Origin: a virus
Taxonomy: Duplodnaviria; Heunggongvirae; Uroviricota; Caudoviricetes
Length of the DNA stretch: 11,042 nucleotides
Direction: 5' to 3' (one strand)
Virus record (IMG/VR): IMGVR_UViG_2740892442_000010
The translations under genes and the position numbers were made by a program. The notes below the pieces were generated by a model. That model had not been told where the DNA came from. It ran no database searches and worked only from the letters and a program-made list of their open reading frames with translations. This document shows positions 1-11,042 of this stretch, in pieces. Within the stretch, counting starts at the first letter, position 1; each line of letters begins with the position of its first letter.

Positions 1-282
1 ATGTCTGCCAGCACCCTAATTTCTATTGCAGAACAGGTAGAAGATGTTATGGGGGGCGAGCACTGGTCATTGCACGATCTGCGCAGAACGTGCAAAACAA
101 AAATGGCTGAACTTGGAGTAGCACCTCATGTTTCGGAGAAAATTCTCGGGCATAAGCTCACGGGGATGCTGGCTGTTTATGACCAGTATGACTACATCCC
201 CGAGCAGCAGGACGCAGCAGAATTATGGGCTAAGAAAATTCAAGAGTGTTCGGAAATCAATCCTTTATCTTTGCAAAACTGA
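1..282 (+). CDS. int: Tyrosine recombinase (phage integrase), C-terminal catalytic portion only; 5' end lies left of the window
   Basis: ORF runs from the first base to a stop at 280-282. Translation carries the C-terminal tyrosine-recombinase signature in order: HDLRRT (His-x-x-Arg), LGHK (His), VYDQYDY (candidate catalytic Tyr). The Met at position 1 is internal, not the true start. Confidence 0.8.
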   Translation: MSASTLISIAEQVEDVMGGEHWSLHDLRRTCKTKMAELGVAPHVSEKILGHKLTGMLAVYDQYDYIPEQQDAAELWAKKIQECSEINPLSLQN

Positions 283-469
283 ATAACTTCCTTGTAGCGA
301 AAGAGGCGCCGCCTTTCGGTGGGTGGATTTCTTCCACTTCCCGAGGGAATGGTGTCCCTGATTGCTCCCACTGTTTACGCTTCCGGTAAAAAGTAGTTCT
401 GGAGATACCACCAAGCATCTCCTGAACACGCTCGCGGTTTATTAGAATCGGCTGAATATTGATTGTCAT
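257..469 (-). CDS. Small HTH DNA-binding protein, AlpA/Xis-like (putative excisionase or transcriptional regulator)
   Basis: 70-aa ORF with GGAG 11 nt upstream of the ATG at 469. The segment LGGISRTTFYRKRK...FP resembles the AlpA/excisionase-type helix-turn-helix (L-x-G-[IL]-S-R-[ST]-T-[IF]-Y-R). The 3' end overlaps the integrase stop by 26 nt in convergent orientation, so the C-terminal residues are uncertain. Confidence 0.5.
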   Translation of the reverse strand: MTINIQPILINRERVQEMLGGISRTTFYRKRKQWEQSGTPFPREVEEIHPPKGGASFATRKLFSFAKIKD

Positions 470-590
470 TTGTATGGTTTCTCCATAAAGAAATAAACCG
501 TTCAGTGGCGGTTATTGTCGGTTGCGGTAGATCTGGCGATCTTGAGAAACTGTCAGGCCTCATCGAGTGTGAGGCTGTATGATTCCATAG

Positions 591-935
591 TTAGTCCTTG
601 CGTAGTTCTCTGATTCTTCTGTAAGTCTCTGGTGCTTTGTTTCCGTGTATCTTCATTTCAGACTTCAACAGAGCAACGAGAGAATCCCATTCGTTGAGGA
701 TGCCTTTGAATGCCGGAACGCGCTTTGCAACCTTGTCGAATGAATCTCTGATTTCTGGAATCTGCTCAACAAGTGCAACGCATCGTCGGAAATCGGCTGC
801 GTCATGTGGAGCGCCGAAGTGATGACCATAGATATTCTTTTTCAGTCCACATGCGATTGAGGCAAGAGTTGCGCTACTGATGCCGACATCGCCAGTCGTT
901 TGCCATTTCAAAATCTTCATAGCCAAATCTGACAT
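591..935 (-). CDS. Hypothetical protein, 114 aa from the ATG at 935 (six-frame ORF extends to 962)
   Basis: Minus-strand ORF. The internal ATG at 933-935 is preceded by GGAGA (complement of 942-946) at about 7 nt spacing; the upstream ATG at 960-962 sits inside the loop of a GC hairpin and has no RBS. No recognisable motif. Confidence 0.5.
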   Translation of the reverse strand: MSDLAMKILKWQTTGDVGISSATLASIACGLKKNIYGHHFGAPHDAADFRRCVALVEQIPEIRDSFDKVAKRVPAFKGILNEWDSLVALLKSEMKIHGNKAPETYRRIRELRKD

Positions 936-946
936 TTCTTGTCTCC

Positions 947-969
947 AATAAAAAACCGCCATCAGGCGG
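947..969 (-). terminator. Putative rho-independent terminator on the minus strand (short GC stem plus U-tract)
   Basis: Minus-strand read: CCGCC-TGAT-GGCGG (5-bp all-GC stem, 4-nt loop; + coordinates 956-969) followed immediately by TTTTTTATT (complement of 947-955). The stem is short, so strength is uncertain. Confidence 0.4.
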
Positions 970-1035
970 CTTAGTGTTCTTTCAGTTCTTCAATTCGAAT
1001 ATTGGTTACATTGTTTTCATATATGAATAAATAAT

Positions 1036-1215
1036 TTAGCTTTTTTCGTTGCTTCCGCGTTCTTTATTATTTTTACTAAACTCGTTTTTACCGCGCATTC
1101 CAAATGCGTCTTTAGAGTTGTTGTATCCGCAATCACTGCACACATAATCTCCAGACCATCCACGCCTTGTTTTTTCTTTTGCAATATTTCCAGAACCGCA
1201 TTTTGGACAAGACAT
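1036..1215 (-). CDS. Small zinc-ribbon protein (CxxC-x19-CxxC) with Lys/Asn-rich C-terminal tail
   Basis: ATG at 1213-1215 preceded by GGAGG with 7-nt spacer (minus strand ggaggtagtgatATG). Product MSCPKCGSGN...YVCSDCGYNN has two CxxC pairs typical of a zinc ribbon. The longer ORF to 1248 lacks an RBS. The overlapping ORF 1017..1256 in another frame is rejected. Confidence 0.6.
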   Translation of the reverse strand: MSCPKCGSGNIAKEKTRRGWSGDYVCSDCGYNNSKDAFGMRGKNEFSKNNKERGSNEKS

Positions 1216-1268
1216 ATCACTACCTCCAAAGCATGAGTGAGATGACAACGTAACATTGATTGGAAATT

Positions 1269-1282
1269 AACAATATATTGTT
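1269..1282. promoter_or_regulatory. Perfect 14-bp palindrome AACAATATATTGTT upstream of the zinc-ribbon gene (candidate operator)
   Basis: AACAATA/TATTGTT is exactly self-complementary. It lies in the 96-bp intergenic gap between the Ead stop (1312) and the zinc-ribbon start (1215), 54-67 nt upstream of that ATG. Confidence 0.3.
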
Positions 1283-1311
1283 GATGTAAAAGATATGTAT
1301 AAGATTCGCTA

Positions 1312-2217
1312 TCAGAGCGGCGGTTCTGGTAGCGGCATCCAGTGGGTTACATTGCGGCTCTGCGTTTCGAAGAACTCCTCACCATTGCGGACAACATCAA
1401 AAAACTCACCGTCTCGATATTGCGCATAAAGAACGAATGCGCCATCACATAAAATAATTACGTGCTGACCATCATCTGGCATTCGCTCACTACAGCTTAT
1501 CCAACCATCCGGAGTTACCGGATAGTTGCCAGACAGCGCATTCTGCAACCGTTCCAGCTTCACGTATTCCTGAACTCTGTTTCCGTCGCACGTCTGAAGC
1601 CATTGAGCAGCCTTTTGCGCATCAGTGTGAAAGGCACAAGTGCGACCGTCATCAAATTGCATTTTGTAGAGGTCAGCAACCTGTTCAAACTCCGTTTGTG
1701 GCAAGTTGTAAGTTTGGCTTACAGGTTTGGCACCATGAAGCATGGCGGCACGACAGGCGTTCCAGCCTCTCACCTCTGCAATAGCTGCAACCGCATCAAC
1801 CGCATACATGCTAAGAGGGTTCGGCATTGGTTTTTCTTCCGGTACTACTGGCGATTGCTGTTTAACTTCTAAATCAGCAATTCTGTCAACTACGGCATCT
1901 ACTGCATCTGAAAAACTGAAACAGTTACTCCATTCCGGCCTGTTCCCGGTTGCTGCAAAATACATATCAGCTAAAGCATACTCAGCATGGTCACGCTCGT
2001 TGATGAGTTGCTCTTCGCTTTTCTCCAGTTCAGCAATACGCTTACTCCCATCCGAGATAACGCCCTCGTAATACTCACGCTGCTCGTTGAGTTTTGATTC
2101 AAGTTCACCGAACTTACGGACAAGATATTCAGCGTTTGTTTCGTTAACCTTTAAATCTCGTGGGATGCATTTACCTTTCAGAAATCCATCCATCTCAATT
2201 AGTGACATTTGTTTCAT
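1312..2217 (-). CDS. Ead/Ea22-like early-region protein with C-terminal DUF551-type domain
   Basis: Long minus-strand ORF. The C-terminus ...[12 protein letters not shown] matches the characteristic DUF551 ending found in lambdoid-phage ea-region proteins. Start assigned to the ATG at 2215-2217, which overlaps the upstream stop as ATGA (translational coupling); the ORF track begins at a GTG at 2235. Confidence 0.7.
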
Positions 2218-2396
2218 TTCTTCCCACTCCGCCACATCGCATTCAGATATTTGTTTTGATTTACTGATGGAAAAGAATTTCTCTTAAGCAATTCCTCTCT
2301 CGATGGCATTGGCTTTACGCGTTGGCGAATAATCATTTCTGCCGGAAGAATGCCGGGATTGTATGCAAGTCCTCTCATGGTAAATTCCTCAGTCAT
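2214..2396 (-). CDS. Small hypothetical protein (about 60 aa), translationally coupled within the ea operon
   Basis: The ATG at 2394-2396 overlaps the stop of the upstream ORF (minus strand aATGacTGA), and its own stop overlaps the Ead start (ATGA). No recognisable motif; the start could instead be the next Met (MRGL...). Confidence 0.35.
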
Positions 2397-2685
2397 TACT
2401 GATAGCGCCATAGCGTGAGCGGTAATTACGCAGGCGCGGGTCGATATATTCAGGGAAGTGGGTATATGTGGCTTTGCGGAATGGTCGGATTGATGTCTGG
2501 TAAATTCGCTCTCGTTCTTCTTTCTCTGCAAGCCATATACAGTGGCGAAATTCCTTTTCCTCTTTCGTTTCCTGCGGTAGCGACATTATCCGATCGTAGT
2601 TTTTTCTGAATTTATCCAGCACCTCCGATACGGAATTGCCGGAACAGCGGCGCGGGTCATCCGCACCATACAGAGGCGCTGGCAT
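2389..2685 (-). CDS. Hypothetical protein, 98 aa
   Basis: Minus-strand ORF with AGGAGAA 4 nt upstream of the ATG at 2685, starting 16 nt after the stop of the exonuclease-like ORF. No recognisable domain. Confidence 0.5.
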
Positions 2686-2701
2686 GGTTTTCTCCTGTTG
2701 A

Positions 2702-3199
2702 TTATTTAGCTAACTTTTTCCAGATCGCTGAAACGTATTTGGCTTGGTGAATGGCATCATCAAGCGCGTTGTGGCGAGTTCCTTTGAATGGCATATCTCG
2801 CTTAGGGTCGAATCCTATTACCTTCCCAAGTTCGACGATTGTTCTTACGTCGCGGTCATTCCACCACTGCCACGGAACTGGCTGCCCTGTCAGCGAATAA
2901 CTGTTGCGGAGAATAACGCAGTCAAATGATGCTCCATTCCCCCAAACCTGAACGAATTTGTGGTTGGCGTTCTTTATGATGAATTCAGATAACCATGAAA
3001 GAGCCGTTGAAAGCTCTTGAGTGTTGCTGGTTAGCGATTTTCTGGCTTCTTCACTCTGTTCCATCCACCATAAAATCGTTGAAGCGTCAGGACGCGCCCG
3101 ATATCGCATTGATGACTCAAGCGAGATATTTACCGAGAACTCTTCTCCTGTTTCTCCGGTATATGAATTTACGCCATACAGCAAACAGCGTGAGTTCAT
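2702..3199 (-). CDS. DEDD-type 3'-5' exonuclease-like protein (DnaQ/Rv2179c-like motifs II and III present); probably 5'-truncated at the deletion junction
   Basis: Translation contains WGNGASFD (Exo II-like, FD) and [13 protein letters not shown] (Exo III-like, H-x4-D), but no N-terminal D-x-E motif is visible. None of the candidate starts (3199, 3109, 3064) has a convincing RBS. The first about 11 codons are simply the reverse complement of the terminase-like fragment that begins near 3165. Confidence 0.45.
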
Positions 3200-3761
3200 C
3201 GACGCCGGGCATGACTATCCAGAGCGATGTTTTATGGCTGGTAACCAGCTTGGTAAGTCATTTACTGGTGCTGCTGAAGTCGCGTTTCACCTTACCGGGC
3301 GTTACGCGAACAAGCAACTGGTGATGATGGGGCTGAAGAAACCAGAAACACCTGAAGAGATGGAGATGGTACAGCAGGCTCAACAGCAGCCGCAGCAGCC
3401 ATCAGCAGAGCAAATTCAGGCGCAGGGTATCCTTCTGCAAGGTCAGGCTGAATTGCTCAAGGCAGAGAACCAACAGGCGCAGATTCAGGTTGAAGCCGCC
3501 AAGGTTGAAGCCCAAAACCAACTCAACGCCGCGAAGATTGCAGAAATCTTCAACAATATGGACCTCGACAAGCAGGCAGAACTGCGTGAGTACCTCAAGC
3601 TAGTAGGTCAATTCCAGCAACAGCGCAGCAAAGATGCTCGTGCTAACGCTGAGCTGCTTCTTAAAGATGCAGACCAGACTCATTCACAACGCATGGATTT
3701 CGCGAATCTTATGCGTCAAGTTCAAATCCCCTCCGGCGGAGTAGCCGAGACACCTCAATAA
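3021..3761 (+). pseudogene. Deletion-scar chimera: terminase large subunit N-terminal fragment (about 3165-3305) fused in frame to portal protein C-terminal fragment (about 3305-3761), P22-like
   Basis: Residues [47 protein letters not shown] carry a P-loop ([AG]-x4-G-K-[ST]: AGNQLGKS) typical of a terminase ATPase N-terminus. The sequence then switches abruptly to a Gln/Ala/Glu-rich helical segment (QQAQQQPQQ...[40 protein letters not shown]...) that I recall as the C-terminal barrel of the P22 portal gp1. The P22 order is 3-2-1-8-5 and scaffold/coat genes follow directly. An out-of-frame ATG at 3163-3165 (tatATGAATTTACG) suggests the native start was ATG-GAA-TTT (MEFTPY) with a 1-bp loss. 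Confidence 0.6.
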
Positions 3762-3774
3762 GAGAGAGTTAATC

Positions 3775-4686
3775 ATGGACCAAACCACCGACATTCAGGC
3801 TTCTGAAGAATTAACCCTGCCCGGCAATCATGCAGCGGCATCTGCTGATGGCTTAGTTGTCGATAATGCCAACGACAACGCAGGTCAGGAAGAAGGCTTC
3901 GAGATTGTCCTGAAAGACGATGAGAAACCAAAACAAGACCCGGCAACTAATGCTGAATTTGCCCGTCGCCGCATCGAACGCAAACGCCAGCGTGAGCTTG
4001 AGCAGCAGATGGAAGCGGTTAAGCGTGGAGAGTTGCCGGAGCACCTGCGGGTGAACCCTGAGTTACCAAAACAACCAGACCCTAACGATTATCTTTCCGA
4101 AGATGCACTGGCTAAGTACGACTATGACCAGAGCCGCGCACTGGCTGCCTTCCAGCAGGCAAACAGTGAATGGCAGATCAAGGCTATGGACGCACGAAGC
4201 CAGGCTGTCGCCGAGCAGGGTCGCAAAACTCAGGAGTTCACCCAGCAATCAGCGCAATACGTCGAGGCAGCCCGTAAGCACTACGACGCAGCGGAAAAGC
4301 TCAATATCCCTGACTATCAGGAGAAAGAGGATGCATTCATGCAACTGGTGCCGCCAGCAGTCGGTGCCGACATCATGCGCCTCTTCCCGGAGAAATCCGC
4401 TGCTCTCATGTATCACCTTGGTGCTAATCCTGAAAAAACACGCCAGTTGCTGGCGATGGACGGGCAATCCGCGCTGATTGAACTCACTCGACTGTCAGAA
4501 CGTTTAACTCTCAAGCCTCGAGCCAAGCCTGTTTCAGAAGCCCCGTTACCTGATGAACCAATTCAGGGACACGCTGTTGCTGCAAATATCTCTGCGATTG
4601 AAAAGCAGATGGAAGCGGCAGCAAACAAAAGGGATGTAGAGACGTACCGCAAGCTCAAGGCGCAACTGAATAAAGGAATTCGATAA
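3775..4686 (+). CDS. Phage scaffolding protein (P22 gp8-like), apparently intact, 303 aa
   Basis: RBS-like AGAGAGAG about 7 nt upstream of the ATG at 3775. Same length as P22 gp8, and the N-terminal region ([29 protein letters not shown]) and C-terminal basic coat-binding region ([15 protein letters not shown]) match my recollection of that protein. Stop overlaps the coat start as TAATG. Confidence 0.85.
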
Positions 4687-5732
4687 TGGCATTAAATGAA
4701 GGTCAACTGGTCACGTATGCTCTGGATGAAATCATCGAAACCGTCCAGAATCTGACGCCAATGGCGTCCAAAGTGACAAAATACACCCCTCCGGCAGAAT
4801 CCATGCGGCGTTCAAGCAACACCGTGTGGATGCCTGTTGAGCAGGAAGCGCCAACCCAGACTGGCTGGGATTTAACTGGCAACGCAACTGGGATTCTGGA
4901 ACTCTCCGTGAAATGCAACATGGGCGATCCGGATAACGATTTCTTCGAGCTTCGTGCAGATGACCTGCGTGATGAGCGTTCTTACCGTCGCCGCATCCAG
5001 GCATCCGCTAAAAAACTGGCGAATAACATTGAGTCAGCAATTGCCAAACAGGCAACTGAAATGGGCTCACTTGTTGTTCACGATACCCGCGCAATTGGTC
5101 CATCTACTGGCCTGTCTGGCTGGGATTTTGTGTCTGATGCAGAGCGCCTGATGTTCTCCCGCGAACTCAACCGCGACATGGGCATCAGTTACTTCCTGAA
5201 CCCTGACGATTACCGCAAAGCAGGCCGCAACCTGGTAGATGGTGACATCTTCGGTCGCGTTCCTGAAGAAGCGTATCGCAACGGTACTATTCAGCGTCAG
5301 ATTGCTGGCTTTGATGAAATTCTTCGCTCACCGAAACTTCCGGCAGTTACCAAGTCAACCGCTACTGGTGTAACTGTTTCTGGTGCGCAGAAGTTTAAGC
5401 CGCAGGCATACACCCTTGATACCGATGGTAACAAAGAGAACGTCGACAACCGTGTTGCAACGGTGACCGTATCCTCCACCACCGGATTTAAGCGCGGCGA
5501 CAAAATCAGTTTCACTGGTGTGAAATTCCTGTCTCAGATGGCGAAGAACGTGCTAACTGATGATGCGACTTTCTCAATCACCCGTGTGATCGATGGTACT
5601 CACATCGAAATCACGCCGAAACCGATTGCACTGGATGACGCGTCACTGACAAAAGAAGAGAAGGCTTACGCTAACGTAAACACCTCTCTTGCTGATACCA
5701 CTCCGGTAAACGTTCTGAACACCAGCCTATGA
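4686..5732 (+). CDS. Phage major coat protein (P22 gp5-like), 3'-truncated at 348 aa versus about 430 aa; likely nonfunctional remnant
   Basis: N-terminus [19 protein letters not shown]... and internal segments ([68 protein letters not shown]) match my recollection of the P22 coat protein. The ORF ends after ...[20 protein letters not shown], well short of full length, and the downstream P22 genes (4, 10, 26, 14, 7, 20, 16) are absent. Confidence 0.8.
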
Positions 5733-5823
5733 AAGAGCGATAAATAACGCTGCGAATGCCATCAGACCGCTGTTTGCTACTGAGGCAACACAGCAGTAAC
5801 GTATGGGAAATTGGATTCAATCG

Positions 5824-6213
5824 CTAACATTTTCTTTTTACTTTTCCAACAAAAGCTTTGGTTGAATCCATATTTCTATAACCGGAAATGGTTTTTGACA
5901 TTAAAACTGTTCCAGTAGGATGTATTACCCATGAGTCGATAACGCGTTGAGTTTCGCCATTCGCGCCGATTCCTATGATGGAGTTTTTAGACAATGCTTT
6001 GTAAGCCATGCCGCCCGCATCTGTCCCAGAATATGTGATGCTGGCATCTTCACCGTTTGTCTTAATGATGAATGTTCCACTAAAACCATCTTCTTCCGGA
6101 TGGAAATTATTTCGTTCTGAATAGCTTATTCCGCGCATATCTCCAACGACCCAGCACTCTGCTGTAGCCCCAAAAGATATGAATAAGAACATAGCAGTAA
6201 GAAATTGCTTCAC
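5824..6213 (-). CDS. Exported protein of unknown function with N-terminal signal peptide (moron-like cargo)
   Basis: Strong RBS AAGGAGG with 5-nt spacer before a GTG start at 6211-6213. N-terminus MKQFLTAMFLFISFGATA/ECW has a hydrophobic core and an A-x-A-type cleavage site. No recognisable catalytic motif. Divergent from the adjacent lipoprotein gene. Confidence 0.6.
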   Translation of the reverse strand: MKQFLTAMFLFISFGATAECWVVGDMRGISYSERNNFHPEEDGFSGTFIIKTNGEDASITYSGTDAGGMAYKALSKNSIIGIGANGETQRVIDSWVIHPTGTVLMSKTISGYRNMDSTKAFVGKVKRKC

Positions 6214-6330
6214 GCCAACCTCCTTAGTTTTGAGCAGGATACCATGAAAAAAGTAAACATCTTTTGCCTACTTCACATTTGAATGGTTTGTCATTAGGAT
6301 GTTTCCGGTTTTTTAAATATGGAAATTGAT

Positions 6331-6750
6331 ATGAAGAGGATTATTGGCGTCGTTGCTGGCGCTATATTGTTATCTGGGTGCGCAACTATTGTTGGTGACG
6401 AAACGCAGCTTGTGCAAGTGAACAGCAATCCTTCCGGTGCGAGCTTTAAGGTAAAAGACGAATCAGGCGTGATTGTTGCGCAAGGTAAGACCCCACAAGG
6501 AGTAACTCTTGCCAAGTCAGATGGTAGTTATTTTGGCAAAAAGAGCTACCAGATCACTATGGAAAAGGATGGGTACGAACCAGTTACCCTGCCAATCAAA
6601 GCCAATGCTAATGGCTGGTATATTGGTGGAAACCTTGTGTTTGGTGGGTTAATTGGTTGGCTTGCTGTAGATCCTTTTAATGGTGGGATGTATACCTTGA
6701 AGCCAAAAGAGGCAAACGCATCTCTTATACCATCAACAAAGCAAGACTAA
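6331..6750 (+). CDS. Lipoprotein (lipobox LLSGC) with PEGA-like beta domain and Gly-rich C-terminal segment
   Basis: MKRIIGVVAGAILLSG-C is a canonical signal II peptide with the lipobox Cys. PSGASFKVKDESGVIVAQGKTPQGVTL resembles the PEGA motif; the C-terminal segment GWYIGGNLVFGGLIGWLAVDPFNGGMY is Gly-zipper-like. An upstream in-frame ATG at 6319 is a possible alternative start but has no RBS. Followed by a strong terminator. Confidence 0.7.
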   Translation: MKRIIGVVAGAILLSGCATIVGDETQLVQVNSNPSGASFKVKDESGVIVAQGKTPQGVTLAKSDGSYFGKKSYQITMEKDGYEPVTLPIKANANGWYIGGNLVFGGLIGWLAVDPFNGGMYTLKPKEANASLIPSTKQD

Positions 6751-6758
6751 TAAATAGG

Positions 6759-6781
6759 ACCCACCTTCAGGTGGGTTTTTT
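6759..6781 (+). terminator. Rho-independent terminator (likely bidirectional) between the lipoprotein gene and mnt
   Basis: ACCCACC-TTCA-GGTGGGT (7-bp stem, 4-nt loop) followed by TTTTTT on the + strand, 9 nt after the lipoprotein stop. The last three codons of the convergent mnt ORF lie inside the 3' half of the stem. Confidence 0.65.
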
Positions 6782-7018
6782 GTACAAATCCTTCAGCGTA
6801 TCAAACACCATCTTCCTAACAAGTTCGGACTGCTCATCAGCGATGCGTTCTGCATCGTCTCGATAGTCTGAAATTTTGGATGGCTTTGATACAGCATCAG
6901 TCACTATCTGAACTAATTCTGAATTAAGAGAGCGGCCATTGGATTTGGCTCGCTGTTTTAGTTTTTCCTTTAATTCGTAAAGTAGCCGCAGATTAAATTG
7001 CGGGTCATCTCTTCCCAT
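6767..7018 (-). CDS. mnt: Mnt repressor (ribbon-helix-helix, Arc/MetJ family), P22 Mnt homolog, 83 aa
   Basis: Translation MGRDDPQFNLRLLYELKEKLKQRAKSNGRSLNSELVQIV...DAERIADEQSELVRKMVFDTLKDLYKKPT is near-colinear with P22 Mnt as I recall it (MARDDPHFNFRMPMEVREKLKFRAEANGRSMNSELLQIV...KKMVFDTLKDLYKKTT), with the same length and the RHH beta-strand FNLR motif. GAGG lies 8 nt upstream of the ATG at 7018. Confidence 0.85.
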   Translation of the reverse strand: MGRDDPQFNLRLLYELKEKLKQRAKSNGRSLNSELVQIVTDAVSKPSKISDYRDDAERIADEQSELVRKMVFDTLKDLYKKPT

Positions 7019-7081
7019 TCTTGATGCCTCGCTTTTGTGAGTGGAGCGGCATCTTATTATCTGCTGGTTGCATCCTCAATA

Positions 7082-7096
7082 AGACCACTGTGGTCT
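7082..7096. promoter_or_regulatory. Perfect 15-bp palindrome AGACCAC-T-GTGGTCT, candidate Mnt operator
   Basis: Exact inverted repeat 64 bp upstream of the mnt start codon. It resembles in style the symmetric P22 mnt operator half-sites (GTCCAC/GTGGAC type, recalled). A plausible leftward promoter for mnt (minus strand TTGAGG-17 nt-TAAGAT, + coordinates 7051-7079) sits immediately beside it. Confidence 0.5.
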
Positions 7097-7290
7097 CTTT
7101 ATTTGATTAATAATGCATCACTGCGGCCACGCTGCAGCGATTCCTTGTATCTGGAGCAAATTAAATGACAGATATTATAAATAGGAATTGTTATTTAATA
7201 ATATTTGAAAATGAAAATCATGGACGATAGGAATAAAAGTAGTACTTGTTATTTTTAAGTGACGCATTAAACGCATAAAGCATATGTCTG

Positions 7291-7319
7291 TTGATCAAGA
7301 TTCTTGCTTGTTGTAAAAT
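7291..7319 (+). promoter_or_regulatory. Candidate sigma70-type promoter upstream of the tailspike gene
   Basis: TTGATC (7291-7296), 17-nt spacer, TAAAAT (7314-7319); would give a leader of about 118 nt to the tailspike ATG. The region is AT-rich, so chance matches are likely. Confidence 0.25.
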
Positions 7320-7443
7320 AATTGTTTTGTTCATGTTGCATAGTTTTAAAGTGAATAGAAGATTATTTTTCAAAACAATTGCATCTTTGTCTGCAGTCAT
7401 TCCGTTTTCTTCAATATCTAAATTTTCAAACAGGATGACTAAT

Positions 7444-10176
7444 ATGCCTGATATAACTCCAAATGTTGTAATTGGGATGCCTTCTCAACTCTTCACTATG
7501 GCTCGTTCTTTTAAAGCCGTAGCTAATGGAAAAATTTATATCGGTAAAATTGACACTGACCCTGTAAATCCTGAAAACCAGATTCAGGTTTATGTAGAGA
7601 ATGAAGATGGTTCTCACGTTCCTGTTTCGCAACCAATCGTTATCAATGCTGCTGGATATCCTGTATATAACGGACAGATTGCCAAATTCGTTACTGTGAA
7701 AGGACACTCTATGGCTGTGTACGATGCTTATGGTACGCAGCAGTTCTATTTTCCGAATGTGCTGAAGTATGACCCGGATCAGTTACGGCAGCAATTAGAA
7801 GATCCTGATGGTGCTAAAAAATACCCTGAATTACAGATTGCACGATGGCGGGATGATAAAGACGTTCGCGGGTGGGGGGCGGATGACTCTGGGAATAGAG
7901 ATTCAACACAGGCTTTTCTTGACGCCGCATCTAGCGCAGGAAATAGTGGTTTGGTTCATGTGCCTTCTGGTGAGTTTATAGTTGATGCATCGAAAATAGA
8001 TATTTCACGCTTCTCCGGTGATGGTGTTCTAATCAGTAATGGTGTTCGCATTTCTGTTAATCCGCCGATGCAAAGTTTCTCCATTGGACAAAGAAAACTT
8101 GCGACCCTGAATTTTGGTGATGATATCAATGCGCCAACTATATATGCGAATGCACAAAATGCATTGCAGGGAATAGCTTGTGTAAGGCATGAAGGTATTG
8201 AGAAGGTTTTTATCACTCAACAGGTTGGAGGTTCTAACTGGGGAACGGACACCCTCACAAGGATCAGTGAGTGGCACTATACAAGCGATGGTTCAACTCT
8301 TTATGTTGTGACATTTACAGAGCCATTGCCTCTTGGTCACGGTTCAGATCTTTCTGCCACAATAGAGAACGGTGAACTATATCTGTTTACAACAACAATT
8401 GCTGAGACTGGTTCCTCTCTAGGAGGGAAGGGGTATTCAAAGACAAAATGGAAAGGGGCATCAACATCTGCTGAAGATATAACTCATTACCGAGTATTTG
8501 GTGAGCCGGGTGATAATAATCTGATTAACCTTGCGCAGCGGGCAAGTATTTGTGTATCTAATGATGGGCGATATGTCATATTAATTGCGACATCAAACGC
8601 TGGGACTGGCCGCTTTTTATACGTATATGATCGCAAAGAAGTGGAATCTTCTTCTAACCCAATGAAAGTTAGACCGATTAATGGTCCTGTTCCACTTGTC
8701 CGTGGTAAAGGTCAGTATGGTGCAACACTTCAGGGTATTACATCAGATAGCAGATATATTTACACAATTTGGGGTGGCGTTCCTGCAAGATGCGTAAGGA
8801 CAGTACAGATTTATGATATGGGTGGTACGCTAATACGTTCATTTCCTGTATCACTTGCCGCATCACTTTATACAGAGACTCAGTTAAATGGTTCTGACTC
8901 TAAAATCGGAGTTCCGGTTAGCTTTGAGCCTGAAGGGCTGGCAATAAGAGGTGATGAACTTGTCTGTGGTGCTATGGATGTATGGAAAAGCGCAGGGGAT
9001 GTTGTAAGCCATCGTGGTAAAAATTGGGTAAGTATTGTTACTGGTGATAACAAGGGAAATCTTCCGACAAACAGGTCTTATTGGTTAAAAACATCGCTTG
9101 CAGCGACAAGTGGTGAATGGGATTCAGGCGCAACATATAAATCAGGTGATTATACTCGCAGAAATAAGCATCTGTTTGGAATAGCAAACCTGTCTGATAT
9201 TCTTGGCAACCATCCAGTGCATGGTGCAGAATCCGATCCGTATACCGGAACCGCGCATCAATATTATGCTGGAACTGATATCGCCTTTAACCGTGAGCAC
9301 GGTTCATTTACTATTGCGATATTTGACGAAGCCATTGGAGAGTATACCAAATCCCTCGAGTTGAATTATGGAAATAACCTTAACCTGTTTGATACAGATT
9401 ACGGACATGACAATAATTCATGGGTAAGTACGAAAGCAGTATTCGACTCAAACTTTCGAGGTATGCAGTTCCGTTCTAAAGATGGGAATACTGCGGGTGG
9501 TGCTTATATTGATATCCATGCTGCTGATTGTCCATCTGCGGCTGGTGAGTTGATACTTGCCTCTACAGATGGAGGTGTCGTCAGACTTAAGCAGGGGAAT
9601 GTAACAGTATTTTCTGCGACTAAAGATACTACATCGACATGGGCGACGACGACATTAAGGCCAACAACTGATAACCAGGTATCACTTGGAAGGTCCGTTA
9701 ACCGCTTTTCTCAGGTCTACGCAGGGACTGCAACTATAAATACATCTGATGCAACAGAGAAAACGGAAGTCAGAACTCTTTCCGATAAAGAGCAGGCGGT
9801 TGGGTTAGCTCTTGTTGATGAAATTGGTTTTTATCAATGGCTTGATAGTGTAAAAAATAAGGGAGCTGATGCCAGACTTCATGCCGGACTTACGGTGCAA
9901 CGGGCAATGGAAATATTCAGAGAGAATGGACTTGATCCATTTAAATACGGAGCGATCTGCTATGACAGATGGGATGCATATACAGATACAGATCCAGCTG
10001 TTTATGATGATGAAGGTAACCTTGTTCGTGAGGCTATAACTATTACGCATGAAGCAGGAGAACGCTATGCATTCAGAAATGATGAATTACAGTATCTAAT
10101 GATTGCTGCATTAGGTATACGTCAGAAAAATATTATAAAGAGGATTGAAGAACTGGAAAATAAGCTTGCAAATTAA
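7444..10176 (+). CDS. Phage tailspike protein, mosaic: P22-type N-terminal head-binding domain, divergent receptor-binding/enzymatic body, C-terminal intramolecular-chaperone-like (peptidase S74-type) domain; 910 aa
   Basis: Start set at the ATG at 7444, with AGGA 8 nt upstream; the ORF track's upstream extension from 7291 is AT-rich and non-protein-like. The first about 115 aa ([59 protein letters not shown]...NVLKYDPDQ) closely match the P22 gp9 head-binding domain ([34 protein letters not shown]..., recalled), and similarity ends right after KYDPDQ. The C-terminal about 143 aa from Ser at 9745-9747 ([10 protein letters not shown]...) fit the S-D-x-x-x-K pattern of autocleaving chaperone domains. 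Confidence 0.85.
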
Positions 10177-10258
10177 CTATTTTACTGACACCTTAAGTCT
10201 CAATATTACCAATTGAAGTCTATGTTTTTTGGGTGTTTTAGTAATTTGTTATAGATAA

Positions 10259-10297
10259 ATGTCACTCCTTAAAGATATCGCATTCTAGGAGTGACAT
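10259..10297. other. Perfect 11-bp inverted repeat (ATGTCACTCCT / AGGAGTGACAT) with 17-nt loop in the convergent intergenic region
   Basis: Arms at 10259-10269 and 10287-10297 are exactly complementary, lying between the tailspike stop (10176) and the acetyltransferase stop (10332). No adjacent U-tract on either strand, so it is not a canonical intrinsic terminator. Confidence 0.4.
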
Positions 10298-10331
10298 GTG
10301 ATTTACTTGTCGTTCAATATATGGTGTGTTT

Positions 10332-11042
10332 TTATTGTTTTTCTTTTGTTAGGTTCCAATATTCACTTGTGGTTTTTATGGAGTCCTTATTAGGCTTTAC
10401 ATAAGGTTTATGTATGGAGAGATGAGGTCTTTCCCAGGCAATGTCTTTTTTTATTACTCTTGCTGGAACTCCTGCTGCAATAGAGTTATTTGGGACGTGT
10501 CCTTTAACAACAGCTGCATAGCCAATAACACTACCACTTTCGATTTCTGCACCACCAAGTATTGCCGCTCGGCGGCCAACCCAGACATGACTTCCAATAT
10601 AAATAGATTTTGGCATATTTATACGTTCACCTGTTACTACACTAAAAATAGGGTGGGAGTCATCAGTTTTAACTTCATTTCCACTTGAAAACATGCAGTC
10701 ATCGCCAATAATTATGCTTGAGTTTTCTACAGCAGAAATCATACCTTTACCAGTGCAAGTGAAATCAGAGCCTATTTTTATGGAGGAATTCTCACCCACT
10801 CTTATATGGGCTTGTATACCTTTGTTTGCGATATGGCATGGGCCAATTTCAAAATACCCATTGTTGCAGTCAAAATATATCTCAAAATATTTTAATGATG
10901 CATCTTTATGAATGATAAGTTTATTATTAGATCCTCTAAACTGAATTAGTTTGACGTCACAACTACCTTCGTACTGGATCTCATTACCCATTTCATCAGA
11001 ATACTTCTCTGCTTTTGTTAAAACAACTTTTCTAATTTTCAT
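10332..11042 (-). CDS. Hexapeptide-repeat (left-handed beta-helix) acetyltransferase; start coincides with the window edge, so the 5' end may extend beyond
   Basis: The C-terminal half IGSHVWVGRRAAILGGAEIESGSVIGYAAVVKGHVPNNSIAAGVPARVIKK shows the [LIV]-G-x4 hexapeptide periodicity and the AAGVPARVI ending typical of the LacA/Maa/NodL/WbbJ-like O-acetyltransferase family. Visibly AT-rich coding sequence. The ATG at 11040-11042 is the last codon in the window. Confidence 0.75.
   Translation of the reverse strand: MKIRKVVLTKAEKYSDEMGNEIQYEGSCDVKLIQFRGSNNKLIIHKDASLKYFEIYFDCNNGYFEIGPCHIANKGIQAHIRVGENSSIKIGSDFTCTGKGMISAVENSSIIIGDDCMFSSGNEVKTDDSHPIFSVVTGERINMPKSIYIGSHVWVGRRAAILGGAEIESGSVIGYAAVVKGHVPNNSIAAGVPARVIKKDIAWERPHLSIHKPYVKPNKDSIKTTSEYWNLTKEKQ

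What the first reader, a model, noticed from the sequence alone, without database searches (positions are those of the whole stretch)
7444..10176. Mosaic tailspike: P22 head-binding adaptor joined to a non-P22 receptor-binding body and a C-terminal chaperone-like domain
Similarity to P22 gp9 is high for about 115 aa and stops right after KYDPDQ (about nt 7790), a known module junction in P22-like tailspikes. The roughly 650-aa body has no resemblance to the P22 endorhamnosidase beta-helix that I can recognise, and shows blade-like segments ([31 protein letters not shown]) suggestive of a beta-propeller or other glycosidase/esterase fold. The last about 143 aa (from TSDATEK, Ser codon 9745-9747) look like an autocleaving intramolecular chaperone domain as in endosialidase-type tailspikes. 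The gene is intact in a decayed prophage, so it may be maintained as a polysaccharide depolymerase or as a donor module for tailspike exchange.
Basis: partly seen in the sequence, partly recalled or inferred. Interest (0 to 1): 0.6.

Follow-up and report, generated by a model that had tools for sequence, protein, structure and literature searches.

The report
P22-type tailspike with propeller receptor module
This is the tailspike gene of a P22-like E. coli prophage whose usual beta-helix enzyme body is replaced by a five-bladed propeller module otherwise known from Bacillus and Staphylococcus phages, followed by a self-cleaving folding chaperone; it is a modest new variant of a known modular design, not a gene the host is preserving.

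Summary
ORF 7444-10176 (910 aa) has a P22 head-binding domain (aa 1-113), a non-P22 body and a C-terminal Peptidase_S74 chaperone with the full catalytic set (D743, R754, T767|S768, K773).

The "maintained in a decayed prophage" idea fails:
- The same gene sits in apparently complete P22-like prophages in two other strains.
- All copies are 99.4% or more identical.
- One copy is truncated by an IS element.

Hosts carrying the same body are O4, O7 and O11, so specificity does not track O-serogroup. The body co-occurs 5/5 with a NeuO-like O-acetyltransferase, as in phage CUS-3.

Verdict: a new variant of a known modular kind, of moderate interest.

The parts
7444..10176 (+). Complete tailspike CDS (910 aa plus stop)
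   Evidence: identical to WP_098704038.1; 100% identical in strain EC24, 99.8% in MS 16-3, 99.1% in E4.
7444..7782 (+). P22-type head-binding (tail-attachment) domain, aa 1-113
   Evidence: Pfam PF09008, E = 1.8e-65. PDB: Sf6 gp14 7sg7 E = 9e-64; P22 gp9 chains E about 1e-48.
7783..7884 (+). Linker, aa 114-147, nearly identical in other E. coli P22-like spikes (CUS-3 endosialidase, Gally); the adaptor/body junction lies at or just after it
   Evidence: BLASTP alignments. Between the window and strain E4, 21 of 23 differing codons fall in codons 3-104, with none between 105 and 166.
7885..8058 (+). Small alpha/beta neck, aa 148-205; the surrounding motif (aa ~141-186) resembles the N-terminal cap of pectate-lyase-type beta-helices
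   Evidence: Weak PF12708 hit, E = 0.008, below cut-off. Profile hits to the start of polygalacturonase and phi29 gp12. Model pLDDT 76-89.
8059..8988 (+). Five-bladed beta-propeller 'platform' module, aa ~206-515, with family-invariant H299, K329, K333, D345, D374, Q430, D435, E495, E497
8989..9150 (+). 54-residue insert, aa 516-569, with conserved W..P..W; weakly CBM5/12-like; absent from GA-1 gp12
   Evidence: Clean gap in the BLASTP and MAFFT alignments to GA-1 gp12. Pfam CBM_5_12 E = 3e-4 to 1e-3, below cut-off and only in this protein.
9151..9630 (+). Distal beta-rich domain, aa 570-729, conserved across the family including GA-1 gp12; fold not assigned
   Evidence: Alignments. Model pLDDT about 58-82, with a low-confidence loop.
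9631..9744 (+). End of the trimeric stalk, aa 730-767, carrying D743 and R754 and ending at the predicted scissile bond T767|S768
   Evidence: Pfam End_tail_spike positions 122-160, 25.4 bits (cut-off 25), when the segment is scanned alone. Aligns with T5 pb1 Asp1239 and Arg1250 (PMC4690869). Low monomer pLDDT, as expected for a trimer-only fold.
9745..10173 (+). C-terminal intramolecular chaperone / Peptidase_S74 domain, aa 768-910; Ser768 (nt 9745-9747) and Lys773 (nt 9760-9762)
   Evidence: Pfam PF13884 above cut-off. PDB sequence hits: 7y5s E = 7e-36, T5 pb1 4uw8 E = 8.5e-33, K1F 3gw6 E = 4e-17, GA-1 3gud E = 1e-16, with residue-level alignments.
10332..11042 (-). NeuO-like hexapeptide sugar O-acetyltransferase, in the serotype-conversion slot after the tailspike; forms a cassette with the spike body
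   Evidence: Pfam Hexapep; NCBIfam hits to sugar and LPS O-acetyltransferases. 38.5% identity, E = 1e-35, to the CUS-3 neuO region. Found in exactly the same 5 of 5,426 genomes as the spike body.
6767..7018 (-). Mnt/Arc-type repressor of the P22 immI region, upstream of the tailspike (arc and ant are missing here compared with strain MS 16-3)
   Evidence: Pfam Arc plus Repressor_Mnt; context in MS 16-3.

Best explanation
This is the structural tailspike (receptor-binding protein) of a P22-like (Lederbergvirus) temperate phage, caught here in a recently decayed copy of the prophage. It is built from exchangeable modules. (1) A P22-type head-binding domain plus linker (aa 1 to ~147) docks the trimer on the tail. 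(2) The receptor module is a five-bladed beta-propeller 'platform' followed by a beta-rich distal domain. It is homologous to Bacillus phage GA-1 neck-appendage protein gp12 and, more remotely, to the staphylococcal phage receptor-binding proteins phi11 Gp45 and P68 gp17. (3) A short stalk and an S74 intramolecular chaperone drive trimer folding, and the chaperone then cuts itself off at T767|S768 using the Ser768/Lys773 dyad. By analogy with phi11 (inferred), each propeller binds a sugar of a surface glycan in the pocket at its central channel, lined by L241/Q242, H299-G-S301, L429/Q430 and E495/E497. The adjacent NeuO-like O-acetyltransferase probably modifies that same glycan in lysogens (inferred). 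The domain architecture, the homologies, conservation of the catalytic residues and the genomic context are shown here. Autocleavage, the nature of the ligand, and whether the propeller is also catalytic are all inferred or open. The gene is intact in this wreck only because the decay is very recent.
Against: The window's own propeller reaches only 12.1 bits on PF21311 (cut-off 23.7), and identity to the staphylococcal proteins is 11-15%. The pocket equivalence rests on short motif alignments and secondary structure, not on a 3D superposition, because I had no access to model coordinates. The alignment used for the model had only 14 sequences. GlcNAc binding by phi11 Gp45 was itself modelled, not observed (PMC4901313). 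All characterised P22-like tailspikes I know of are enzymes, so a purely binding spike would be unusual. No experiment exists on any Gram-negative member of this family.
Confidence: 0.72

Rival explanations
1. The propeller is a catalytic depolymerase (glycosidase, lyase or esterase) that cuts or deacetylates the host O-antigen or capsule, as in every characterised P22-like tailspike. The invariant acidic and histidine residues (H299, D345, D374, D435, E495, E497) would form the active site.
Against: The best structural neighbours, by a wide margin, are RBPs with no known enzyme activity. The same H/Q/ExEG motifs are conserved in those binders, so they need not be catalytic. There is no GH, PL or CE Pfam hit. 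The activity of propeller RBPs in phages is stated to be unclear (PMC12491483).
Confidence: 0.33
2. One reading: the host keeps the gene intact under selection, as a domesticated polysaccharide depolymerase or as a reservoir module for tailspike exchange.
For: The ORF is intact while the terminase, coat and integrase genes in the same prophage are broken. pN/pS against other copies is low, 0.08-0.2. The adaptor/body junction is demonstrably recombinogenic, since E4 carries a different head-binding allele on the same body.
Against: Complete prophages carry the same gene. The body differs by only 0-4 nt in 2,388 among four genomes, so being intact needs no selection. The low pN/pS comes almost entirely from the imported head-binding allele. 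In GMF065 the gene is 5'-truncated by ISEc31 while the acetyltransferase stays intact. The gene is present in only 5 of 5,426 genomes.
Confidence: 0.05
3. The spike is a conventional O-antigen-specific receptor-binding protein that recognises one serogroup. The mixed host O-types would then reflect O-antigen switching after lysogeny.
For: TUM10008 (O11), EC24 (O7) and E4 (O7) share an identical 8.5-kb chromosomal flank, which is compatible with one lineage that exchanged its O locus. O-antigen is the usual receptor of P22-like phages.
Against: MS 16-3 (O4) has a flank 1.43% diverged yet a virtually identical spike and acetyltransferase, inside a complete prophage. That implies recent infection of, or transfer into, a different O-type. 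A propeller RBP of PGN829.1 was reported at over 99.5% identity in prophages of O11, O83, O86 and O102 strains and judged not O-specific (PMC10408124). Propeller-bearing Klebsiella phages hit more capsule types (PMC12491483).
Confidence: 0.25

Closest known systems
CUS-3 endosialidase tailspike (E. coli K1 P22-like prophage)
   Same: The overall plan is the same: P22 head-binding domain plus linker (about 76% identity over aa 1-190, near-identical to ~147), then a beta-propeller receptor module, a stalk and an S74 chaperone (32% identity, E = 7e-15). In both, a hexapeptide O-acetyltransferase follows the spike gene (neuO; 38.5% identity to the one here).
   Different: CUS-3 has the six-bladed GH58 sialidase propeller (Pfam PF12217, PF12218, PF12195). 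None of those domains is found here, and the propeller here is five-bladed and of the phi11/GA-1 type. The acetyltransferase here is on the opposite strand.
Bacillus phage GA-1 neck appendage protein gp12
   Same: Colinear homologue of the whole receptor module, stalk and chaperone: E = 5e-77, 29% identity, aa 153-890 against GA-1 86-732. It is the best BFVD structural hit. Its chaperone domain is solved (PDB 3gud).
   Different: It has a different N-terminal attachment region (phi29-type collar instead of a P22 tail). It lacks the 54-residue W..P..W insert, aa 516-569. Its host is Gram-positive, and the function of its propeller is not characterised.
Staphylococcal phage RBPs phi11 Gp45, P68 gp17, 80alpha, NF5 (Pfam PF21311 Phage_RBD_prop)
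   Different: Only 11-15% identity, below the Pfam threshold for this protein. Those proteins have a coiled-coil stem and a 'tower', with no S74 chaperone and no P22 adaptor. Their ligand is glycosylated wall teichoic acid, which E. coli lacks.
P22 gp9 and Sf6 gp14 tailspikes
   Same: The N-terminal head-binding domain (Sf6 is nearly identical over aa 1-113; P22 chains E about 1e-48) and the gene's position after the immI region.
   Different: Their body is a right-handed parallel beta-helix endorhamnosidase with no cleaved chaperone. There is no similarity beyond aa ~118 (P22) or ~200 (Sf6).
Gally (AIEC LF82 prophage) and vB_EcoP-683R2 tailspikes
   Same: The same head-binding domain, linker and propeller body (45% identity over aa 1-726), in P22-like phages. 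Gally is productive.
   Different: They end in a different, uncleaved C-terminus (…GTGNTGW..) in place of the stalk and S74 domain. This is a different body subtype.

Membership tests
P22-like (Lederbergvirus) tailspike | N-terminal head-binding domain (Pfam PF09008) | tested here: met
   218.7 bits against a cut-off of 24, aa 1-113; PDB hits to Sf6 and P22 chains.
P22-like (Lederbergvirus) tailspike | Gene located after the immI (mnt/arc/ant) region at the right end of a P22-like prophage | tested here: met
P22-like (Lederbergvirus) tailspike | Right-handed parallel beta-helix endoglycosidase body as in P22 gp9, Sf6 and HK620 | tested here: not met
   No sequence match beyond aa ~118-200. The model is an antiparallel propeller. 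Only a weak beta-helix-cap-like motif at aa 141-186.
Peptidase S74 / C-terminal intramolecular chaperone domain | Pfam PF13884 above the gathering score, at the C-terminus of a tail spike or fibre | tested here: met
   31.7 bits against a cut-off of 22, aa 768-829; PDB homologues E = 7e-36 to 1e-16.
Peptidase S74 / C-terminal intramolecular chaperone domain | Catalytic Ser-Lys dyad with the upstream Asp/Arg folding sensor (T5 pb1: D1239, R1250, T1263|S1264, K1269) | tested here: met
   D743, R754, T767|S768 and K773 at identical spacing in the residue-level alignment (PMC4690869).
Peptidase S74 / C-terminal intramolecular chaperone domain | Actual autoproteolytic release after trimerisation | not testable with these tools
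   Needs protein expression and S768A and K773A controls.
Phage_RBD_prop (Pfam PF21311; phi11 Gp45-type platform) | Sequence match above the Pfam gathering score | tested here: not met
   12.1 bits against a cut-off of 23.7 for this protein. Four of nine relatives hit weakly, best E = 0.0011.
Phage_RBD_prop (Pfam PF21311; phi11 Gp45-type platform) | Five-bladed, four-stranded propeller fold closest to the phi11, P68 and NF5 RBPs | tested here: met
Phage_RBD_prop (Pfam PF21311; phi11 Gp45-type platform) | Sugar-binding pocket residues (phi11 M164/Q165, T211, M329/Q330) | tested here: inconclusive
   Conservative counterparts L241/Q242, S301 and L429/Q430 by motif alignment. No 3D superposition and no ligand data.
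GA-1 gp12-type appendage/spike body | Colinear similarity across propeller, distal domain, stalk and chaperone | tested here: met
   E = 5e-77 over aa 153-890; BFVD E = 4e-38, TM 0.59.
Endosialidase (GH58) tailspike | Six-bladed sialidase propeller with its beta-barrel insert (Pfam PF12217, PF12218, PF12195) | tested here: not met
   None of these domains is found. Only the last ~38 residues of PF12219 (the stalk end) match. No similarity to CUS-3 between aa ~190 and 738.
Five-bladed propeller glycoside hydrolases (GH43, GH62, GH32, GH68, GH130) | Family-specific catalytic carboxylates and a sequence-family match | tested here: inconclusive

The most novel reading that the evidence does not exclude
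The propeller module is a lectin-like, possibly non-hydrolytic receptor binder that recognises a glycan shared across O-serogroups, for example a capsule, enterobacterial common antigen or a common HexNAc epitope. That would let a P22-like podophage infect O4, O7 and O11 hosts, with the linked NeuO-like acetyltransferase masking the same glycan in lysogens. The whole receptor-plus-chaperone cassette would be shared by descent or transfer between phages of Firmicutes (GA-1, staphylococcal phages) and of Enterobacteria.
Probability: 0.2. Interest if true: 0.65.

Novelty: new variant of a known kind. Interest (0 to 1): 0.4.

Why it matters
P22-type tailspikes are the textbook beta-helix O-antigen enzymes. 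This one shows the same adaptor carrying a receptor module of the kind that Gram-positive phages use to bind teichoic-acid sugars, together with a self-cleaving chaperone. The role of propeller domains in enterobacterial phage receptor-binding proteins is described as unclear in recent literature, and such domains correlate with broader host range. Because this gene sits in a genetically tractable P22-like E. coli prophage, with apparently complete copies in MS 16-3 and E4, it offers a direct way to test whether these propellers bind or cleave and which glycan they see. The strict linkage with an O-acetyltransferase points to a receptor/modifier pair. For annotation, it shows that 'phage tailspike protein' covers a distinct and rare body family: about 150-280 clusters at 50% identity among 1.84 billion cluster representatives.

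Tried and rejected
- Beta-helix body: rejected. Only a short cap-like motif (aa 141-186) resembles beta-helix proteins.
- Endosialidase-type six-bladed propeller or Asp-box sialidase: rejected. No PF12217, PF12218 or PF12195 hit, and no CUS-3 similarity in the body.
- CBM5/12 identity of the aa 516-569 insert: left open. The hit is below threshold and occurs only in this protein.
- Coliphage SU10 as a precedent for propeller fibres: rejected. Its propeller belongs to the nozzle protein.
- Identifying PGN829.1 gp49 with Gally's spike: rejected, since they are only 46% identical. I did not verify that the paper's 'RBP1' is gp49.
- Promoter and terminator scans around the gene: nothing above chance.
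- Locus search by motif in species-representative genomes: only one hit, a Pseudomonas. That search needs exact motif matches and so undercounts. The exhaustive HMMER search gave 278 representatives.
- K-antigen (kps) typing of the hosts: not attempted, because no tool can search one chosen genome.
Pocket statements therefore rest on sequence and secondary structure.

Full report
OBSERVATION. The window holds an intact 910-codon ORF from ATG 7444 to the stop at 10174-10176. The window is 100% identical to the chromosome of E. coli TUM10008, where this ORF is annotated 'phage tailspike protein', WP_098704038.1. Pfam places a P22 Head_binding domain on aa 1-113 (218.7 bits) and Peptidase_S74 on aa 768-829 (31.7 bits, cut-off 22). 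Sequence search of the PDB matches aa 1-118 to Sf6 gp14 and P22 gp9, and aa ~723-905 to the chaperone-bearing ends of a phage tail fibre (7y5s), T5 pb1, K1F endosialidase and GA-1 gp12. Nothing matches in between.

THE JUNCTIONS. Against P22 and Sf6 the break is at about aa 115. Against E. coli P22-like spikes (CUS-3, Gally), near-identity continues to about aa 147 (…[33 protein letters not shown]). The junction is active. Between the window and strain E4, 21 of 23 differing codons lie in codons 3-104 (22 nt in 345, mostly synonymous), while the remaining 2,388 nt differ at 2 positions. A second junction lies near aa 721-730. The Gally and 683R2 spikes share the body up to that point but end in a different, chaperone-less C-terminus.

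THE BODY. Only about 16 proteins in the 5.8-billion-sequence collection share the whole body. They carry varied adaptors: P22 head-binding, T7 tail-fibre N-terminus, or none recognised. An exhaustive HMMER search of 1.84 billion cluster representatives finds 278 relatives at E <= 1e-3 and 154 at E <= 1e-30, with the propeller starting anywhere from residue 1 to about 800. An AlphaFold2 model of aa 117-767, built on a 14-sequence alignment, has mean pLDDT 75. Confidence is 80-95 over aa ~141-586 and low only in loops and in the trimer-dependent stalk. It shows twenty short antiparallel strands in five groups of four.

POCKET. In phi11 Gp45 a cavity proposed to hold GlcNAc is lined by Met164, Gln165, Thr211, Met329 and Gln330 (PMC4901313). 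Motif alignments put these opposite L241/Q242, S301 (in GHGS) and L429/Q430, all at conserved family positions. An E-x-E-G motif (E495, E497) is shared by the window protein, GA-1 gp12, phi11 Gp45 and P68 gp17. From the strand pattern, these motifs open what I take to be the innermost strand of successive blades; this is an inference, since I had no coordinates. This supports a sugar-binding site at the central channel. It does not establish catalysis, because the same residues occur in proteins not known to be enzymes.

OTHER SEGMENTS. Residues ~141-186 weakly resemble the N-terminal cap of pectate-lyase-type beta-helices, including phi29 gp12. Residues 516-569 are an insert absent from GA-1 gp12, with a sub-threshold CBM5/12 match. 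Residues 570-729 form a conserved beta-rich domain whose fold I could not assign.

CHAPERONE. Residue-level alignment to T5 pb1 (S1264A structure) and K1F (S911A structure) shows D743, R754, T767|S768 and K773 at exactly the spacing of T5 Asp1239, Arg1250, Thr1263|Ser1264 and Lys1269. These are the residues proposed to sense trimer folding and perform the cleavage (PMC4690869). The last 38 residues before Ser768 match the end of the endosialidase stalk model (25.4 bits, cut-off 25). Autocleavage is therefore strongly predicted but not shown.

CONTEXT AND THE 'MAINTAINED' IDEA. The window is a gutted P22-like prophage between espL1 and thrS. The integrase is split by IS1, only a terminase fragment remains, the coat gene is truncated, and most tail and ejection genes are missing. 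The P22 Abc2, exonuclease, scaffold and Mnt homologues are present. The exact spike body occurs in 5 of 5,426 complete E. coli genomes, and they form a decay series:
- MS 16-3 and E4: apparently complete P22-like prophages, from terminase to ejection proteins, then mnt/arc/ant, spike and acetyltransferase.
- EC24 and TUM10008: different partial deletions.
- GMF065: only a spike pseudogene truncated by ISEc31, plus the acetyltransferase.
Among four of the genomes, the body, the downstream gene and the intergenic DNA differ at 0-4 positions in 3.6 kb. Being intact here therefore reflects recency, not selection, and the spike is demonstrably not protected from decay.

RECEPTOR CLUES. PGAP names the wzx/wzy genes of the hosts as follows: O4 in MS 16-3, O7 in E4 and EC24, O11 in TUM10008. 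TUM10008, EC24 and E4 share an identical 8.5-kb thrS-pheT flank. MS 16-3 differs there by 1.43% while keeping the same spike. So the module has reached at least two chromosomal backgrounds and three O-types. This argues, though not conclusively, against strict O-serogroup specificity. It parallels two published remarks: that a PGN829.1 RBP recurs in prophages of several O-groups (PMC10408124), and that propeller-bearing Klebsiella phages hit more capsule types, with the fold's activity 'unclear' (PMC12491483).

Immediately downstream, on the opposite strand, lies a hexapeptide O-acetyltransferase (10332-11042). It is 38.5% identical (E = 1e-35) to the neuO region of CUS-3, and it occupies the same slot after the spike. 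It occurs in exactly the same five genomes as the spike body. By analogy with P22 gtrABC, Sf6 oac and CUS-3 neuO (established knowledge), this suggests a receptor/modifier pair acting on a surface glycan.

FUNCTIONALITY OF THE DESIGN. Gally, a P22-like prophage of AIEC LF82 whose spike has the same adaptor and a 45%-identical propeller body, produces about one virion per cell and lysogenises a cured host (PMC9928086). So a propeller body works on a lederbergvirus tail.

VERDICT. This is a real, ordinary-in-role but unusual-in-composition tailspike. It combines a P22 adaptor, a GA-1/phi11-type five-bladed propeller receptor module and an S74 chaperone. The closest known architecture is the CUS-3 endosialidase spike, which has a different propeller family. 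The modular principle, the chaperone and the propeller platform are each known; the combination, and the family's presence in enterobacterial P22-like phages, is uncharacterised. I rate it a new variant of a known kind, with interest 0.4. The binder-versus-enzyme question and the identity of the glycan remain open.

Noticed in passing
window 10332-11042 (-): NeuO-like hexapeptide sugar O-acetyltransferase (38.5% identity to the CUS-3 neuO region) in the serotype-conversion slot. It is found in exactly the same 5 of 5,426 E. coli genomes as the spike body and stays intact even where the spike is truncated (GMF065). No 5' heptanucleotide repeats of the neuO kind are evident in its translated N-terminus.
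   Followed up: partly
window 1-7440: Anatomy of the decayed prophage: integrase C-terminal fragment (1-282; IS1 lies just outside the window), DUF551/Ead protein (1312-2235 -), P22 Abc2 anti-RecBCD (2389-2685 -), 3'-5' exonuclease (2702-3199 -), terminase fragment (3021-3761), intact scaffold (3775-4686), coat truncated at ~346 of 423 profile positions (4686-5732). After that the sequence jumps to the immI region, with portal, gp4/gp10/gp26 and the ejection genes deleted.
   Followed up: partly
window 7019-7443: The arc and ant genes that sit between mnt and the tailspike in MS 16-3 and E4 are missing here and in EC24. Only ~425 bp of AT-rich DNA (GC about 34%) separates mnt from the spike, so the spike may now lie directly downstream of the Mnt-controlled promoter region. 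The promoter scan was not above chance.
   Followed up: partly
window 7444-7788 vs L007 20001-20345: Strain E4 carries a head-binding-domain allele 6.4% diverged at the DNA level (22 of 345 nt, mostly synonymous) on an otherwise identical spike. This is direct evidence of recent recombination at the adaptor/body boundary.
   Followed up: yes
window 7864-8001 (aa 141-186): The motif '[22 protein letters not shown]…VPSGEFIV' resembles the N-terminal cap and first rung of pectate-lyase-type beta-helices (PF12708 E = 0.008; phi29 gp12, polygalacturonase), although a propeller follows. It may be a vestige of a beta-helix ancestor or a common neck element.
   Followed up: partly
window 8989-9150 (aa 516-569): A 54-residue insert with conserved W530, P541 and W547, present in the Gram-negative family members but cleanly absent from GA-1 gp12. 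It has a weak, sub-threshold CBM5/12 (chitin/cellulose-binding) match.
   Followed up: partly
window composition, 7000-11042: GC falls from ~50-55% in the scaffold and coat genes to ~43% in the spike and ~34-37% in the flanking intergenic DNA and the acetyltransferase. This is consistent with the spike-acetyltransferase cassette having a different origin from the head genes.
   Followed up: no
L009 6001-7548 (Pseudomonas sp. NPDC096917, NZ_JBIWEO010000011.1): The only species-representative genome hit for the propeller motifs encodes a body 49% identical over all 511 residues, so the family extends to Pseudomonas (pro)phages. Its context was not examined.
   Followed up: no
window 6319-6750 (+) and 5824-6213 (-): Two conserved small ORFs between the ejection-gene remnant and mnt. 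The first is WP_000821222.1, labelled 'peptidase associated/transthyretin-like domain' in one record and hypothetical in another. Neither has a significant Pfam family, and both are also present in the complete MS 16-3 prophage.
   Followed up: no
L029 12408-15862 and L004 1-3468: P68 ORF17 (tail fibre) and GA-1 gene 12 occupy the same position after the upper-collar and lower-collar/adaptor genes in their small podovirus genomes. The propeller RBPs of these Gram-positive podophages are therefore syntenic as well as structurally related.
   Followed up: no
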